DNA from: a virus
Length of the DNA stretch: 64,000 bases
IMG/VR virus record: IMGVR_UViG_3300044640_002221
Span: 64,001-128,000 of that record
Direction: 5' to 3' (one strand)
The notes beneath the pieces were generated by a model. The model was not told the DNA's origin and searched no databases. It saw only the letters and a program-made list of their open reading frames with translations. This document shows positions 1,515 to 10,000 of this stretch, piece after piece. How positions within the stretch are numbered: position 1 is the first letter of the stretch; each line of letters starts with the position of its first letter. A program made the translations under genes and the position numbers.

Positions 1515-1856
1515 TTAAAGACGGTTATGCTTTTCGGTTCTTTGTACTCTTCTTGGTACTTTATTCTCATCGAGAATGTTATATAAGACAGTAGTGCCAA
1601 AACCAAACTCTTTTAGGATGTCGCCAGCTTTTGAACCAGCTTTATATTTTGATATAACCTGCTCAACAGTGGCAGAAGGCAGCTTGACTTTACTAGCGAT
1701 AGTCCTTCTTTCATAAACTTGGTTTTTATCCAATAGAGTATAAAAATTATGACTGTTAAGCTCGTATCTCAGTTTTATTCTGTGTACAGGCTCGCCATCT
1801 TTATATGCTGCTATTATTTCTGCTACTTGTTGTGGGGTTAAATCTTTATAGCTCAT
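1515..1856 (-). CDS. Intron loop-1 ORF, tandem HTH-repeat protein
   Basis: Two similar repeats (EIIAAYKDG..IKLRYEL..FYTLLDKN / QVISKYKAG..ILKEFGF..LYNILDEN) bracketed by an 11-bp stem (1866-1856 with 1501-1491). Confidence 0.75.
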   Translation of the reverse strand: MSYKDLTPQQVAEIIAAYKDGEPVHRIKLRYELNSHNFYTLLDKNQVYERRTIASKVKLPSATVEQVISKYKAGSKAGDILKEFGFGTTVLYNILDENKVPRRVQRTEKHNRL

Positions 1857-1877
1857 TGCACCTACCGGATATTTTCA

Positions 1878-1991
1878 ACCTGCGTAATCACAGCTTATAT
1901 GCACTTCTCCTGGTCTACATTCAAACCCTACTCTGGGATTACCTGGGAAGGTAATTGTTCTTGTTTCAGGTTGCCATAGAGTAATTCCCAA
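1878..1991 (-). CDS. polA: polA middle segment ending at the 5' splice site
   Basis: Frame open 2006-1878: ...TITFPGNPRVGFECRPGEVHISCDYAG, equivalent to PolA 'RxxF...G..l.s.DY'. Possible TTG start at 1991 with AAGGA 8 nt upstream; the start is a hypothesis. Confidence 0.7.
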
Positions 1992-2188
1992 ATTTCTTTT
2001 CCTTTCTTAGTTAGTTGCAGATACTGCCTCTTGATGAGCAGCTGCTTACTTTTTAAAACATTCAAAGCAAGCATCACCTCCTTGGTGGTTAGTGGAACAT
2101 CTGGAAATAGAATACCCTTTTGAGGGTCTTTAAAGCACTGGAGAACTAGCAACTCATGCTGGCTCAACTTTAAGCCCAACGGGAGCAA
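1928..2188 (-). CDS. Small winged-helix-like ORF in the +1 frame across the polA discontinuity
   Basis: LSQHELLVL...LTTKEVMLALNVLKSKQLL..RQYLQLTKKGKEIWELL resembles a wHTH ending in LTxKG. Confidence 0.5.
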   Translation of the reverse strand: MLPLGLKLSQHELLVLQCFKDPQKGILFPDVPLTTKEVMLALNVLKSKQLLIKRQYLQLTKKGKEIWELLYGNLKQEQLPSQVIPE

Positions 2189-3554
2189 ACCAGGCTTTAG
2201 ATAGTGTAAGATTGCAATGCGTTTTATTCCCTATTTGTTGGCTGTTAGGTGCTGAAGAACTGGCTCTACTTGTAGCGGCTCCAAGTTGATCATAGCGAGG
2301 ATGAACGTTACCAGTCACAGGATTAATAAACTTTCTCAAGTCCATACCTTCCTGCTTCAATAACTTCTTAAACTCAAGAATAGCTTTCACTACAGGGCTG
2401 AGAGCTATCAAGTCTGACTGTTCCATGATAGTTAGTTCCTCAAAGAGAGATTCCTCATCATCACTAATAAAGATATCATCTCCACCAGCCTCACCATCGC
2501 CCCCGCTGTCTGTCTTTTTAGAAGCATGAAGTAAGTCTACAATGTCTAGCATTCTTTTGAGAGTTTTACCTTGTACATCAGTTAGCTTATTCATGTTGAT
2601 AGCTTTCTGAAGTACATCTAGTAAGCCTGTTGAGGAGCGAAGAACCTTGAGGGCTTTCTGCGAAGGAACTTCTTTACCAGACCAATCACGTTGGGGAGTG
2701 TCAAGCTCTAGTTCTCTCGAAAGATAAACTCCAGCTTCGTCTAGTGCTTCACAAACCCCTTCTTGATAAAGTCGCATGGTTTCTTCACTGACTGGCATAC
2801 CGCCATATTCCATCTCAGCTACTATGACAGTGAAGTTTAATTCTCGTTTAAGAACTTTCTCCATTCCAAAGCCATAAACACCTGAGCTGTTACCTGTCTG
2901 TAAGATAGGGCTATCTGGTAGTGCGGCTATAATAACTTGCTCCATGATGTCATGTATCTGAAATAGATATTTAACATCTGTAGCTGCGTATAGCACCTTC
3001 TCATACCACCATTCATTATCTAGAGTTCTGGCTGATATTGCAGTTCCCCAGGTAGAAGCACGCAGGTCTTTCTTACCGGTGATGTGAACACTCAAATACT
3101 CTCGGCACAAGTCAGCGTAACTATGTCCATGACCTTTACCTACCTTTGAGCCTGTGGCATTGGATATTAACTTACCCATTACCATGATGTCTCGCACGCG
3201 CTCTGGCATATAGTCCAAGGTTGATTTCATGAACTGCATATCAAACTTGTAGTTAATACCTAGCTGATAGTCTTGTACACTTTCTAAAGTGTCTATCAGT
3301 TCTTGAGGGTTGTAACCAGCAACTTCTAGGTGAAGTAAATCAAAGACGTAGGGGATACCTTTAGGCTTCTGGGCTATTAGCAGAGAGATTCTACCTGTGT
3401 GAGGGTCAAGAGCAGAGCCACCTTTGGTTAACCACTCTGGTCTTACACAGGTTTCTGTATCTACTGCCAGCCGCTTTGCTCCATAAAGGTCTCTACAAGC
3501 TAGAGGATAGTCTTGCAGGTTGGTTATGTAGGCAAAAGGTTTAGTTTGTTTCAC
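2154..3554 (-). CDS. polA: DNA polymerase I N-terminal part (3'-5' exonuclease, thumb, start of palm); no 5'-3' exonuclease
   Basis: ExoI AVDTET, ExoII NYKFD, ExoIII YAATD; C-terminal VHPRYDQLGAATSRASSSAPNSQQI matches PolA 'H.fnQ.gtaTGRLSSs.PNlQni'. Confidence 0.92.
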   Translation of the reverse strand: MKQTKPFAYITNLQDYPLACRDLYGAKRLAVDTETCVRPEWLTKGGSALDPHTGRISLLIAQKPKGIPYVFDLLHLEVAGYNPQELIDTLESVQDYQLGINYKFDMQFMKSTLDYMPERVRDIMVMGKLISNATGSKVGKGHGHSYADLCREYLSVHITGKKDLRASTWGTAISARTLDNEWWYEKVLYAATDVKYLFQIHDIMEQVIIAALPDSPILQTGNSSGVYGFGMEKVLKRELNFTVIVAEMEYGGMPVSEETMRLYQEGVCEALDEAGVYLSRELELDTPQRDWSGKEVPSQKALKVLRSSTGLLDVLQKAINMNKLTDVQGKTLKRMLDIVDLLHASKKTDSGGDGEAGGDDIFISDDEESLFEELTIMEQSDLIALSPVVKAILEFKKLLKQEGMDLRKFINPVTGNVHPRYDQLGAATSRASSSAPNSQQIGNKTHCNLTLSKAWFAPVGLKVEPA

Positions 3555-6165: not shown

Positions 6166-6739
6166 TAGCCTCTGAAGCTTTTACAAGCGTTTGTAGAGTG
6201 TCAGCTAGTCTAGTATCTTGAGAAAACTCTCTGAACTTTGAGTTTACTTGTTTTACTATCTCAAACTCTTCTTGATGTTTCTTTAATTCTTCTACAAGCT
6301 TTTCTACTAAAGCTGCTTTTTCTATTATGAGTTCTTTGAGCTCTTGCTCTCTATGTATATTACTAACCATACTTGATGCCAGTTCAAAAAACTGGGAGTA
6401 ACTATCATTACTTACTATAGTAAGGTTTACTTCGCTTGTACTCATTACTTCACTCTCTGTTATTTTAAATTCCTTTCTCTTATCTTTTTTTTCACTTACT
6501 TCTTTTTCTTCTTTCTCTTGTTTTAACAGATTCTGGACTGCTTGTCTATCTTCTTCATTATCTAAGCAGTTTAGTAACACCAAACCTTCTTTTGTCTTCA
6601 ACACTACTTCTATGTCCGGGGTTAAGTATTGTTCAACCTGTCGTAGAGAGTCAAGGCTTATATAAGGATAATTGGGAGTAGATGCTACTTCTATAGCTTT
6701 TACTTGTCTATTGTTGAATATTACTAGAGTATTGAGCAT
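6146..6739 (-). CDS. Hypothetical protein with charged coiled-coil C-terminus
   Basis: ORF track; operon packing. Confidence 0.7.
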   Translation of the reverse strand: MLNTLVIFNNRQVKAIEVASTPNYPYISLDSLRQVEQYLTPDIEVVLKTKEGLVLLNCLDNEEDRQAVQNLLKQEKEEKEVSEKKDKRKEFKITESEVMSTSEVNLTIVSNDSYSQFFELASSMVSNIHREQELKELIIEKAALVEKLVEELKKHQEEFEIVKQVNSKFREFSQDTRLADTLQTLVKASEASEDEAE

Positions 6740-6790
6740 GGCTTATTATGCGTGTTAATGTTAAGCTGGACTTGTTACATAATTAATACT

Positions 6791-7015
6791 ATGTCTTCTA
6801 ATATTGTCACATCTAATGGTTTAAAGTTAGTTTACACAGGGGAGTTTCTTAACGACCCGGCTGCGGATACAGCAGTAGATTTAGCAACAAACTTCAATAC
6901 TAATACTGAATATCTAGATACGCTGGTTACTAGAGTAACTCTCCTAGAGCCTTTGGCACAGGTTGTGGAAGATTCTGGACTATCAGCAAAATTCTTAAAT
7001 GGTGGAAGCTTCTAA
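6791..7015 (+). CDS. Small protein upstream of the tail fibre, possibly virion-associated
   Basis: ATG at 6791 (MSSNIVTSNG) after an AT-rich divergent spacer is a more plausible start than 6752; T/N/D-rich. Confidence 0.6.
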   Translation: MSSNIVTSNGLKLVYTGEFLNDPAADTAVDLATNFNTNTEYLDTLVTRVTLLEPLAQVVEDSGLSAKFLNGGSF

Positions 7016-7063
7016 ATCTTTCAACGAACAGTTCGTCGCATAAGCAATAAATAATAAATAATC

Positions 7064-10000
7064 ATGTCTAGCCCAGCCGACTTTGACCCTACAAGAATTA
7101 TTAACAAACATTCAGCTACAGCTAACACTGTTCCTAGTCTGTCTACTCTAGAAATTGATGACCAGTTAGTTGGTTTGTATAAAGGTGAGATAGCTGTAAA
7201 TCATTACTCTAATGGCACTTTACTATCTTCTGTAGGGTTATTCATTAGAGTAGGAGCTACCACAACAGAAGAGGTTTCTGACAAATTAGTTCGCATAGGC
7301 CCTGCTTTTGTTACTAACGACTTAACTACAACTACCGCTCCTACTTTAAGTAATCTTTCTAATCCCAGCCTTAATCTTGCTGGACAACTATGGTTAAGAA
7401 CTACAGACTCAGCCGTTTTTATTCATAACTCTATAGGTTGGCAGAGAGTAACTCCTTTAGTGGCTACTGCCGCGACAGCTGGGTTAGTGAGATTAGCAAC
7501 AGAAGCCGACTTAAATGCTGAAGTTTCTGACAGAGTTCTCACACCAGCACTATTAAAGAGTTGGAGAGATAATAAGAAGCTTATAAGTGAAAAAGAATCA
7601 GCGTTCTCTTTTTATGTGGATTGTTACTCTGGTGATGATTCGGTAGAAAACGATGGTAGAGACCTTTATAGACCTTTCAAAACTATTGAGCGAGCTTTAC
7701 TTGAAGTTGCTAAAGTCAGTTATCTACCAGATGCGGGTACTGGCAGCAGAGACTATTACGCTAACTCTACTGTTTTTGTAGGCATTGGAGATTATGTAGT
7801 TGACAACAGACCAGGTTCGGCTCTAGTATCTGAAATTTTATCTTCGGCTGCTGACTCTACAGAACCAATTCAACCTATTAGTGTTGGTGCTATCACAAGC
7901 TATGATCTTACGACTCAAACTTTAGTATTAAGTGGTGGAGTAACTGAAGAGTTAACTGTTGGGACTCAGTTATTTTCTAGTGGTGGTGGAAAAGCTGTAA
8001 TAGAAGCACAACTAGAAACAGGGTACAAATTAAAATCTGTTAGCGGCTCTTGGCTGCCAACTTTAACTGTCAGAGTCTCACAACATAGAGTTTATAACAG
8101 TGTTACAGGCGGTGTTATAGTCCCAAGAGGGTGTTCTATTGTAGGAGCAGACTTAAGAAAAACCAGAATAAGACCAAAGTATGTTGGTGACTTCACTGCT
8201 TGGCAAGATGATTCTGGTTGTTTTGGCACAGGTAGAACATCAATCTTTAAGTTAACAGGCGGGTCTCACTGTACTGCTTTTACATTTACAGATAACTTAA
8301 ATATTCTCTCAACACACCATCTCTGTACTTGCGTTGAGTTTGCTTCTAGCGATGAGTTATCTAATTCAACTTCTGGTTATTACTCTAAAGTCTTTAAAGG
8401 TCTAGGAGCTACTGTTAGCCCGACTATGTTAGCTACTAACTTGGCGGCTGTACTTGAAGAGAGTAGTATTGTGTCTCCTACAATATCTTCTACAGAGTTA
8501 GATCCTAATGGCTTTACTGCTGTTAACAGTGTTGTGGGTTCCTCTCCTTACGTCTTTAACTGCTCTGTGCTTTCCAGGTTTGGTCTGTGCGGTATGTTGG
8601 TTGACGGAGCAAAGGCAACTGGCTTTAGAAGTATGGTGACAGCACAGTTTACTAATGTCTCCCTGCAAGTTGACTCTAGAGCTTTTGAGAATGATATTGC
8701 TACTCCTGGTGGTAAAAGATATAAAGAACTATGGAGACACTTCTCGTTTAAAGCTTGTAACAACGGTTATATCCAGATTGTTAGTTGCTTTGTAGTGGGC
8801 TCGGCTATTCACTATCAAACAGTAGATGGTGGAGAAATGAGTATCACAAACAGTTGCTCTAACTTTGGTGACTTGTCTCTTGTTTCTAATGGGTATAGCA
8901 CCAATATTCTTCCTCAAGATACTGGCGGTACTATTACAAAACTTATCAGCCCTAAACCTCTTTCTCTAACTCCGGTAGAGATACCAACTCTTCCTTTTGT
9001 AGCAGCTAACTCTACAACTACTAAGCTATATCTTGAAGGAGATTTAGCTGAAGAAAGAATAGCTCCTTTTACCTTTGTAGGTGGCGACACTCTTTATGTA
9101 AATGATGGTGAAGGTACAGAGTATACTGCAAAACTATCGGCTACAGCTCCTTTCTTTGCTCAAGATAGTAACGGCTGGTACTTTATCACTCAAGCAACTT
9201 CTAACGGCATCTATGCTAATAGAGCTTTGATAAACTTATTTCCTATTTCTATCAAAAGGGTGGTTGACGAGAGATCACAAGACGACAGAATCTATTGGTT
9301 AAAGCTGGAAGGATTAACCTCTGACTCTCAGCGTAGACCTTTAGAAAACTTTGTTCTTAGGTTTAACCAGACTTTAATGAGTAAGACTCTCGCAAGAAGT
9401 CTATTTGTAGCAGCAGTTAAAACTACTGATAGTGCCGGAGTTAATCTTGCTACTGGAACTTATTTAATAGCATTACTAAGTGCAGATGGTAATAATGACC
9501 TGACTGAGAATATTTATCCACCAATAGCGGTTAATGCCCCTCTTGAGAACTCTGCTACTAGCTTGACTTACAAGGCTATGCAGACTCTACTCACTGCTTT
9601 AGAGATATCACAAGCGGAGCAATCAACCTTACTGGTGGCATCTAACTCTGAAGCTACTATTCCAGTAACTATCCGTCCTGACTTTGCTAGACCCTCGTTG
9701 ATAAGATGCTCTATGCACACTTGGGAGTGGCAAGGGTACATGAACTACTCTTCTGCTTTACCTAAGTTTCAACAAAAAGTTTTATCCTTTACTGACTCAA
9801 TGAAAAGAATAAAGGTAGAAACAGAGGGAGGTCGTGTTTACTCTACTGGTATAGATCAAGACGGTAATTTTATTGTTGGTAATAAGGTTATTGACTTAAA
9901 GACTGGTAATGAAAAGGCACTTAACGGAGCTAATACAGACTCTCAAGTGTTTAAGAAGCTAACAGTGACTGAAAGGCTGTTAATGTTTCCTAACTCTACT

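What the first reader, a model, noticed from the sequence alone, without database searches (positions are those of the whole stretch)
1878..2235. polA is also broken upstream of the intron, with four in-frame stops bridged by a +1-frame winged-helix ORF
Seen: the N-terminal ORF (…PNSQQIGNK…VEPA*) and the motif-A segment (…PGNPRVGF…DYAG) are in the same frame but separated by TGA (2156-2154) and three TAA codons (last at 2009-2007). The +1 frame is open over the whole gap and encodes a wHTH-like sequence. I find no group I core or intein motifs there. Three models: (a) a naturally split family-A polymerase whose second subunit starts at TTG 1991 (AAGGA 8 nt upstream), with a small gene between; (b) one protein with a wHTH insertion made by programmed +1/-1 shifts; (c) two compensating indels (assembly error or decay), for example in GGG at ~2232 and CCC at ~1944. 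Split family-B T4-like gp43 is known; I do not recall a split family-A case.
Basis: partly seen in the sequence, partly recalled or inferred. Interest (0 to 1): 0.7.

Follow-up and report, generated by a model that had tools for sequence, protein, structure and literature searches.

The report
Naturally split cyanophage DNA polymerase gene
The break is real. This lake-water cyanophage and its relatives, including Microcystis phage Ma-LMM01, encode their family-A DNA polymerase as two separate genes cut inside the catalytic domain, here with a small, conserved winged-helix gene between the halves.

Summary
On the minus strand, polA stops at TGA 2156-2154. Three TAA codons follow in the same frame. 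The +1 frame is open from 2230 to 1931.

It is not an assembly error. Contigs from four other sequencing runs cover the stretch with substitutions only and no indels.

It is not a frameshifted single protein either. The same break, just after the N-x-Q-Q-I motif (Taq loop about 586-592), occurs in at least 13 lineages that are 26-75% identical, including cultured Ma-LMM01 (gp180/gp178). The relative frames of the pieces differ between lineages. In some lineages other genes sit in the gap. The downstream half has a start codon of its own in every lineage inspected; here it is TTG 1991, with AAGGA 8 nt upstream.

The +1-frame ORF (2188-1928, 86 aa) is a real gene. dN/dS is 0.09-0.38. The predicted fold is a MarR-like winged helix (pLDDT 83, Z up to 9.8). 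It has 79 cluster-level relatives, nearly all stand-alone and 62-118 aa long. In ten lineages it lies between the two halves. Its function is unknown.

[quoted passage not shown] A split inside the palm with a conserved small partner gene is a new variant.

The parts
2154..3554 (-). polA N-part gene (466 aa). It holds the 3'-5' exonuclease domain, the thumb and the first part of the palm up to the PN-x-QQI motif, then a 25-residue lineage-specific tail and stop TGA 2156-2154.
   Evidence: ORF list. Pfam DNA_pol_A_exo1 E 3.9e-15 and DNA_pol_A positions 72-147 of 381. A profile of the N-parts aligns to Taq 522-589 and Klenow chain positions 298-360 and stops there.
2157..2231 (-). Tail of the N-part after QQI. 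It has no counterpart in unsplit polymerases and overlaps the start of the wHTH gene in another frame.
   Evidence: Tails of 18-35 residues follow the same motif in all split relatives; their sequences are lineage-specific. The window and L009 tails are alike.
1928..2188 (-). Small winged-helix gene (86 aa, TTG start, stop TAG 1930-1928), +1 frame relative to both polymerase halves. It overlaps the N-part end by 35 nt and the C-part start by 64 nt.
   Evidence: Homologues at 83-95% identity in other assemblies, two of them with an ATG ten codons upstream. Homologous ORFs lie in the same gap in ten lineages. dN/dS is 0.09 and 0.38. AF2 pLDDT 82.9. Best fold matches are MarR, TubR and Rio2 winged helices, Z 9.8-8. 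Foldseek returns only winged-helix proteins.
2000..2004 (-). Shine-Dalgarno-like AAGGA, 8 nt upstream of the C-part start.
   Evidence: Read from the sequence. L009 has GAGGA 11 nt before an ATG one codon downstream. L013 has AAGGAG 7 nt before a GTG.
1878..1991 (-). First exon of the polA C-part gene (38 codons, TTG start). It holds the strand leading into motif A and ends at D-Y-A-G; the group I intron follows at 1877.
   Evidence: ORF 1875..1991. The C-part profile aligns from Klentaq chain position 301, about Taq R593, onward. Later exons were found by tblastn at contig 64154-63714, 59273-, 56905- and 56138-55875.

Best explanation
The phage's family-A replicative polymerase is made from two separately translated genes. 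The N-part (exonuclease, thumb, and palm motifs up to PN-x-QQI) ends at 2154. The C-part (palm motif A, fingers motif B, palm motif C) starts at TTG 1991 with its own ribosome-binding site and is itself interrupted further downstream by group I introns. The cut lies in the surface loop that in Taq is about residues 586-592 and in Klenow about 681-687. The catalytic palm must therefore be rebuilt by non-covalent association of the two polypeptides, probably helped by the extra tail of the N-part and the extra head of the C-part (inferred, not shown). The +1-frame ORF between them is an independent, selected gene for an 86-aa MarR-like winged-helix protein. It overlaps both polymerase genes, so its translation is probably coupled to theirs. 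I infer that it acts with the polymerase, either as a DNA-binding or assembly accessory or as a regulator of the operon. That role is not shown.
For: (1) The break is real. Contigs from four other runs show no indels over 1799-2383.
(2) The break is old and conserved. It follows the same motif in L009 (73% identity), L011, L012, L013, L014, L015, L016, the Ma-LMM01 group, L027, L028, L029 and L036.
(3) Frame relations (N, wHTH, C) differ: 2,0,2 here; 2,0,1 in L011, L012 and L015; 2,1,2 in L013; all one frame in L014.
(4) The gap behaves as an ordinary intergenic space. It is 2 nt in L016 and 119 nt in the Ma-LMM01 type. In L015 about 1.4 kb, including a DPPY-motif, methyltransferase-like ORF, separates the N-part from the wHTH gene. 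L027 and L028 carry an extra tandem-HTH ORF there.
(5) Every C-part inspected has a start codon just after the last upstream stop. It is ATG in L009, L011, L012, L015, L016 and L017, and TTG or GTG with an SD-like sequence here, in L013 and in L014.
(6) Catalytic motifs A, B and C are intact in the window's exons.
(7) The wHTH ORF is under purifying selection: dN/dS 0.09 for L011 vs L012, against 0.06 for the N-part and 0.16 for the C-part. It folds confidently as a winged helix.
(8) Precedent: split 43A/43B family-B polymerase subunits co-purify and are active (PMC2988022). Split exo/pol family-A polymerases are described (PMC10201439).
Against: No protein or RNA data were available, so neither separate translation nor association of the halves nor polymerase activity has been observed. 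The start here is TTG, and the SD argument is weak in L011 and L012, where no SD-like sequence precedes the ATG. The role of the wHTH protein rests only on position and conservation. Ma-LMM01-type phages and L016 lack it, so the split enzyme does not need it in general. The genomic context of the other 70-odd family representatives could not be checked.
Confidence: 0.85

Rival explanations
1. One polypeptide made by programmed ribosomal frameshifting: +1 near 2232 into the wHTH frame and -1 near 1944 back. This would give a polymerase with a winged-helix domain inserted between motif 2 and motif A.
For: In the window and in L009 the +1 frame opens exactly after QQI and closes just before the conserved P-R-V-G-F, and the two halves share a frame.
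Against: The frame relations are not conserved. L011, L012 and L015 would need two +1 shifts; L013 a -1 then a +1. In L015 about 1.4 kb with other ORFs lies between the N-part and the wHTH gene. In L027 and L028 a 130-150-aa ORF lies between the wHTH gene and the C-part. Seven of the ten aligned wHTH ORFs have their own ATG, and family members elsewhere begin with Met directly before the G-F motif. No slippery motif is conserved between the window and L009 at either junction.
Confidence: 0.04
2. Artefact or decay: two compensating indels from assembly error, or a polymerase pseudogene in a defective phage.
For: Short homopolymers (GGG, CCC) sit near both frame changes. The source is a metagenome contig, estimated 71% complete.
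Against: Four other runs from four studies give the same frames with 0 gaps, including a strain with 6 substitutions. The substitutions are conservative or synonymous in the frames proposed as coding (my reading, table 3). Relatives down to 26% identity share the split. The cultured, infective phage Ma-LMM01 has it. All pieces are under purifying selection.
Confidence: 0.01
3. The gap is an intervening element removed after transcription or translation: an unrecognised intron, a split or atypical intein, or translational bypassing. The mature polymerase would then be one chain.
For: The same gene is full of mobile elements: group I introns, and inteins in L009 and L016. Fractured genes with split inteins flanking a free-standing endonuclease gene are known from metagenomes (PMC2677866).
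Against: Rfam finds no intron model in the gap at E<=1. The N tails (18-35 aa) and the C heads (19-42 aa, most of which correspond to the strand that leads into motif A) are too short for a conventional intein, by my knowledge of intein sizes. They also lack conserved Cys/Ser ... His-Asn-Cys/Ser/Thr junctions: the first tail residue is G, S or T. Gap length ranges from 2 nt to about 1.6 kb with unrelated content. The C-part keeps its own start codon.
Confidence: 0.05
4. The wHTH gene is only a passenger, the DNA-binding remnant of a mobile element such as a degenerate free-standing homing endonuclease that originally split the gene. It would have no role in replication.
For: Free-standing endonuclease insertions are the documented way phage genes become split (mobE in nrdA, a seg-like gene in gene 43; PMC2988022). 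The gap also hosts other HTH ORFs. L016 and the Ma-LMM01 type work without it.
Against: It is kept in ten lineages whose N-parts are 35-75% identical, with dN/dS as low as the polymerase itself. No nuclease domain or remnant is seen in any member. Family members are uniformly 62-118 aa apart from three longer proteins.
Confidence: 0.25

Closest known systems
Microcystis phage Ma-LMM01 gp180 / gp179 / gp178 (and MaMV-DC, MaMV-DH01 and others)
   Same: Same polymerase clade (27% identity to the N-part). Same cut directly after the N-x-QQI motif, with an N-part tail of 18 aa and a C-part with its own ATG.
   Different: The GenBank record calls the halves '3'-5' exonuclease' and 'DNA polymerase', and I found no paper that describes this as a split catalytic domain. 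Its 51-aa gap ORF gp179 is not related to the wHTH family (hhalign probability 0.1).
Split exo/pol family-A polymerase of T7-like cyanophages (S-SBP1, S-TIP37; Czernecki et al. 2023, PMC10201439; PMC12695635)
   Same: Gene fission of a phage family-A polymerase into two adjacent genes. Frameshifting was dismissed there on comparative grounds too.
   Different: There the cut lies between the exonuclease and polymerase domains, so each domain stays whole. Here it lies inside the polymerase domain between motif 2 and motif A, so the palm is shared by two chains. Here a conserved small gene also sits in the cut.
Split family-B polymerase genes 43A/43B of Aeromonas phages 25 and 44RR; mobE-split nrdA of Aeh1 (review PMC2988022)
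   Same: A replication enzyme is cut within a functionally critical region, with either an untranslated spacer or a small free-standing gene in the gap. The pieces reassemble into active enzyme.
   Different: A different polymerase family. The gap gene there is a homing endonuclease; here it is a nuclease-free winged-helix protein conserved over long distances.
Split DNA polymerases of OM43 phages MEP401/MEP402 (PMC10580990)
   Same: Reported as a polymerase gene split in two with a small ORF of unknown function inserted.
   Different: An unrelated phage group. I did not examine the position of the cut or the nature of that ORF.
Fractured genes with split inteins (Dassa et al. 2009, PMC2677866)
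   Same: The order is N-half, small free-standing ORF, C-half, in phage-like replication genes.
   Different: No intein halves flank the cut here, so no protein trans-splicing is expected.

Membership tests
Family A DNA polymerase (Pol I / T7 type) | 3'-5' exonuclease domain followed by the polymerase domain with motif 2 (PN-L-Q-N-I-P type) | tested here: met
   Pfam DNA_pol_A_exo1 E 3.9e-15 and DNA_pol_A E 7.3e-9 on the N-part. The profile matches Taq, Klenow and Bst chains.
Family A DNA polymerase (Pol I / T7 type) | Catalytic motifs A (D-Y-x-x-x-E), B (R-x-x-x-K-x-x-N-F-G-x-x-Y) and C (H-D-E) | tested here: met
   Motif A spans exon 1 (1878) and the next exon. Motif B is in the exon at contig 64154-63714. 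V-H-D ends the exon at contig 56905-56816. The C-part profile matches Klentaq at E 3.5e-32.
Family A DNA polymerase (Pol I / T7 type) | Single polypeptide carrying the whole polymerase domain | tested here: not met
   Four in-frame stops and an independent restart, conserved in at least 13 lineages.
Winged helix-turn-helix, MarR-like fold (the gap protein) | Order H1-strand-H2-H3-beta-hairpin wing; structural similarity to solved winged-helix proteins | tested here: met
   AF2 pLDDT 82.9, pTM 0.70, with helices 10-17 and 35-47, a hairpin at 51-59 and helix 61-71. VIA-align Z 9.8-8.0 to SarZ, MarR, TubR and Rio2 N-domain over 73-82 residues. All top Foldseek rows are winged helices, but E is only 0.02-0.1. 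H2 is not modelled as a helix.
MarR / PadR transcription-factor families (sequence membership) | Significant match to the Pfam family model; dimerisation helices flanking the wHTH | tested here: not met
   No Pfam family reaches its cut-off. The best is wHTH-PRTase_assc in 7 of 10 members at E 0.004. At 86 aa the protein lacks the N- and C-terminal dimerisation helices of MarR proteins.
Group I intron | P3-P7 catalytic core recognisable by the Rfam model RF00028 | tested here: not met
   No hit in 1878-2235 at E<=1. The same search finds the neighbouring introns.
Split intein / fractured gene | Intein N- and C-halves at the cut, with a Cys/Ser first residue and a His-Asn plus Cys/Ser/Thr junction | tested here: not met
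   Tails are 18-35 aa and begin with G, S or T. Heads are 19-42 aa, with no H-N junction. True inteins in L009 and L016 show these motifs elsewhere in the gene.
Programmed ribosomal frameshift gene | Conserved shift direction and slippery site at the frame junction | tested here: not met
   The shift that would be needed differs between lineages, and the pieces are not always adjacent.

The most novel reading that the evidence does not exclude
The small winged-helix protein is an obligatory third subunit of a heterotrimeric family-A replicase. It would clamp the two halves of the palm together or tether them to primer-template DNA, as thioredoxin does for the T7 polymerase. The arrangement would define a previously unrecognised multi-subunit form of Pol A, widespread in freshwater cyanophages.
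Probability: 0.2. Interest if true: 0.75.

Novelty: new variant of a known kind. Interest (0 to 1): 0.5.

Why it matters
Family-A polymerases are the textbook single-chain polymerases. The only published fission I found separates the exonuclease domain from the polymerase domain. Here the cut passes through the catalytic palm, between the primer-binding motif 2 and the metal-binding Asp of motif A. It is nonetheless kept across a large clade of bloom-associated cyanophages, one of them cultured. That gives a natural system for asking how a polymerase active site can be assembled from two chains, which is useful for split-polymerase engineering. It also corrects current annotation, where these genes are labelled 'exonuclease' plus 'polymerase', and where gene-callers and marker-gene surveys that use polA will miscount them. 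Finally, it adds a conserved small DNA-binding-fold protein of unknown role to the replication module.

Tried and rejected
- Complex prediction on the L013 N-part, C-part and wHTH gave no answer (score 0.00). It is not evidence either way.
The genomic context of P0001-P0003 and of the 79 family representatives could not be fetched.
- The look-up of sequencing runs listed no RNA holder, so expression is untested.
- Viral-contig scans with P0011 and P0008 found nothing. The scan with A4 found only L009's contig.
- Megablast of 6 kb against the phage records found no match.
- The first AF2 model, from 5 sequences, was poor (pLDDT 66.5). It was replaced by the 10-sequence model.
- PHROGs gave only a 0.09 hit. 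The ESM Atlas gave unnamed clusters and sub-0.9 winged-helix leads.
- The Rfam alpha_tmRNA hit at 1993-2121 on the plus strand is 16.9 bits against a 50-bit cut-off, with no structure. I treat it as chance.
- The promoter and terminator scan was not above shuffled expectation.
- Ma-LMM01 gp179 is not related to the wHTH family. Whether it is a real gene was not resolved.
- The Ma-LMM01 genome paper (PMC2258655) is not held.

Full report
WHAT IS THERE

The window is bases 64001-128000 of a 136.9-kb IMG/VR virus record. Its nearest cultured relatives are Microcystis phages of the Ma-LMM01 group and Pseudanabaena phages. polA lies on the minus strand at the window's left edge.

- ORF 3554..2154 (466 aa) carries the 3'-5' exonuclease domain and Pfam DNA_pol_A positions 72-147. 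It runs through the motif P-N-S-Q-Q-I, adds 25 further residues and stops at TGA 2156-2154.
- The same frame then has three TAA codons, the last at 2009-2007. It reopens and reads from TTG 1991 to D-Y-A-G at 1878, where a group I intron begins.
- The +1 frame is open from 2230 to 1931.
- AAGGA lies 8 nt before TTG 1991.

NOT AN ERROR

Logan contigs from four other runs (four samples, four studies) cover 1799-2383 without any gap. One contig differs by 6 substitutions, so it is a different strain. By my reading of that table the changes are as follows.
- The TGA after D-Y-A-G becomes TAA.
- One change is synonymous in the C-part.
- One R-to-K change matches the residue found in L009.
- One change is synonymous in the wHTH frame.
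- One T-to-A change falls in the N-part tail.

Three homologues of the +1-frame protein at 83-95% identity come from further assemblies.

THE SPLIT IS CONSERVED AND OLD

A 197-kb IMG/VR contig (L009, 73% identical N-part) has the same layout.
- The N-part ends about 24 residues after Q-Q-I with a similar tail.
- A homologous 93-aa ORF lies in the +1 frame.
- The downstream half restarts at an ATG one codon from the position of the window's TTG.

Profile scans of IMG/VR and JGI/ENA metagenomes brought further lineages at 26-55% identity. HMMs of the three pieces were run on all open frames of these loci, and the loci were read by eye. The results:
- Split with the wHTH gene in the gap: the window, L009, L011, L012, L013, L014, L015, L027, L028, L029 (L031 is the same type).
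- Split without it: L016 (2-nt spacer), the Ma-LMM01 type (L005, L017-L023, L032, L033, L038; 119-nt spacer holding the unrelated 51-56-aa gp179 ORF) and L036.
- Unsplit: only more distant polymerases, namely Pam2, PA-SR01, L034/L035 and L039.

The cut is always directly after the N-x-Q-Q-I motif. The N-part profile aligns to Taq 522-589 and then stops. The C-part profile begins at Klentaq chain position 301. With the residue numbering as I recall it, this puts the cut in the Taq loop V586-Q592 (Klenow V681-R687). That loop lies between the primer-contacting motif 2 and the strand that carries the motif A aspartate (D610 in Taq, D705 in Klenow).

WHY IT IS TWO GENES AND NOT ONE FRAMESHIFTED PROTEIN

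- The relative frames of N-part, wHTH and C-part are 2,0,2 in the window and the equivalent pattern in L009. They are 2,0,1 in L011, L012 and L015, 2,1,2 in L013, and all one frame in L014, where stops and a further small ORF separate the pieces.
- In L015 about 1.4 kb, including a DPPY-motif, methyltransferase-like ORF, separates the N-part from the wHTH gene.
- In L027 and L028 a 130-150-aa tandem-HTH ORF separates the wHTH gene from the C-part.
- Every C-part inspected has a start codon within a few codons of the last upstream stop. It is ATG in six lineages. It is TTG or GTG preceded by AAGGA, AAGGAG or GGAGGA in the window, L013 and L014.
- Seven of the ten aligned wHTH ORFs start with ATG.
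- No intron model fits the gap. The tails and heads are too short for intein halves and lack their junction residues.

The catalytic motifs are intact. The remaining exons were located by tblastn at contig 64154-63714, 59273-, 56905- and 56138-55875. This agrees with the first-stage notes on the introns.

THE GAP GENE

The 86-aa ORF (2188..1928) is under purifying selection. dN/dS is 0.09 for L011 vs L012, against 0.06 for the N-part and 0.16 for the C-part of the same pair. It is 0.38 for the window vs L009, where dS is near saturation.

With a 10-sequence alignment AlphaFold2 gives pLDDT 82.9 and pTM 0.70. The model has helix 10-17, helix 35-47, a beta-hairpin at 51-59 and helix 61-71. VIA-align finds MarR-type, TubR and Rio2 winged helices at Z 9.8-8 over 73-82 residues. 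Foldseek lists only winged-helix proteins, at weak E-values. A sequence profile gives weak winged-helix matches in PDB and Pfam.

An exhaustive profile search finds 79 cluster representatives at E<=1e-3. Of these, 76 are 62-118 aa, and the ones read begin with Met directly before a conserved G-F motif. This fits the TTG start proposed here. No fusion to a polymerase was seen. The single 239-aa member has an unrelated C-terminal extension.

HOW IT MOST LIKELY WORKS

Shown: there are two polymerase genes and one small gene, each conserved and each with its own start.

Inferred: the N-part and C-part associate non-covalently to rebuild the palm. This is what happens for the split family-B 43A/43B polymerase and the mobE-split NrdA of T4-like phages (PMC2988022). 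It was also modelled for exo/pol-split family-A enzymes (PMC10201439). The lineage-specific N tail and C head are the obvious candidates for the new interface.

The wHTH gene overlaps the N-part stop by 35 nt and the C-part start by 64 nt. Its translation is therefore probably coupled with theirs, which would keep the stoichiometry fixed.

Whether the protein is a subunit, a DNA tether, an operon regulator or a domesticated remnant of the element that split the gene cannot be decided here. The complex prediction returned no verdict, and the contexts of distant family members could not be fetched.

COMPARISON WITH WHAT IS KNOWN

[quoted passage not shown] OM43 phages are reported with a polymerase split by a small unknown ORF (PMC10580990). 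Ma-LMM01's pieces are annotated in GenBank as exonuclease, hypothetical protein and polymerase. The surveys of viral replicases that I could read treat it simply as a Pol A phage (PMC3201878).

I found no description of a split within the polymerase domain at this loop, nor of the conserved winged-helix gap gene. I therefore rate it a new variant of a known kind. It is well supported as a feature and of moderate interest. The interest would rise if the small protein proves to be part of the enzyme.

Noticed in passing
L009:7290-8290 and L009:9550-10850: The 73%-identical relative carries two inteins in polA that the window lacks. One holds an HNH-like region and is inserted just before S-S-S-N-P-N (motif 2). 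The other is a LAGLIDADG-type intein inserted in motif B before N-F-G. The same gene is therefore invaded at different sites in close relatives.
   Followed up: partly
L016:6380-7690: In L016 the C-part is a 787-codon open frame because an intein (C-L-A... to ...V-H-N-C) sits exactly at the motif A aspartate. The split itself has only a 2-nt spacer and no gap gene.
   Followed up: partly
window 1515-1856 (-); L027:1594-2046; L028:6563-6958: The 113-aa tandem-HTH ORF lies inside the first group I intron in the window. It has look-alike tandem-HTH ORFs that sit in the split gap between the wHTH gene and the C-part in L027 and L028. It appears to be a free-moving gene that uses either site. The likeness was judged by eye only.
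   Followed up: no
L014:6377-6541; L029:6578-6745; L015:6166-6498: A further small conserved ORF of about 55 aa, helical by its sequence pattern, lies between the N-part and the wHTH gene in the L014/L015/L029 subclade. L015 additionally holds a DPPY-motif, methyltransferase-like ORF (6690-7559) in the gap.
   Followed up: no
L014:6507-6750: In L014 the wHTH ORF and the C-part are in the same frame, separated by a single TAA. A TTG with GGAGGA upstream follows 15 nt later. Stop-codon read-through would fuse the two proteins there.
   Followed up: no
G000:C1 63714-59273 (left of the window; L002:1273-5714): The polA exon ending R-W-V and the next exon (D-E-E-N-A-K-G...) are 4.4 kb apart. Nine ORFs on the same strand lie between them, including a LAGLIDADG protein and a GNAT acetyltransferase. 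L009 has a similar arrangement. First-stage notes already flag this as a giant or split group I intron.
   Followed up: partly
L034 and L035: 3-8213: A distant unsplit relative of this polymerase is embedded in a single open frame of more than 2700 codons. This suggests a giant fusion protein or several inteins.
   Followed up: no
L020:6391-6890 and L019, L033: Some Ma-LMM01-type contigs carry an insertion of about 500 nt right after D-F-S-S of motif A that Ma-LMM01 itself lacks. The position is the same as the window's first group I intron.
   Followed up: no
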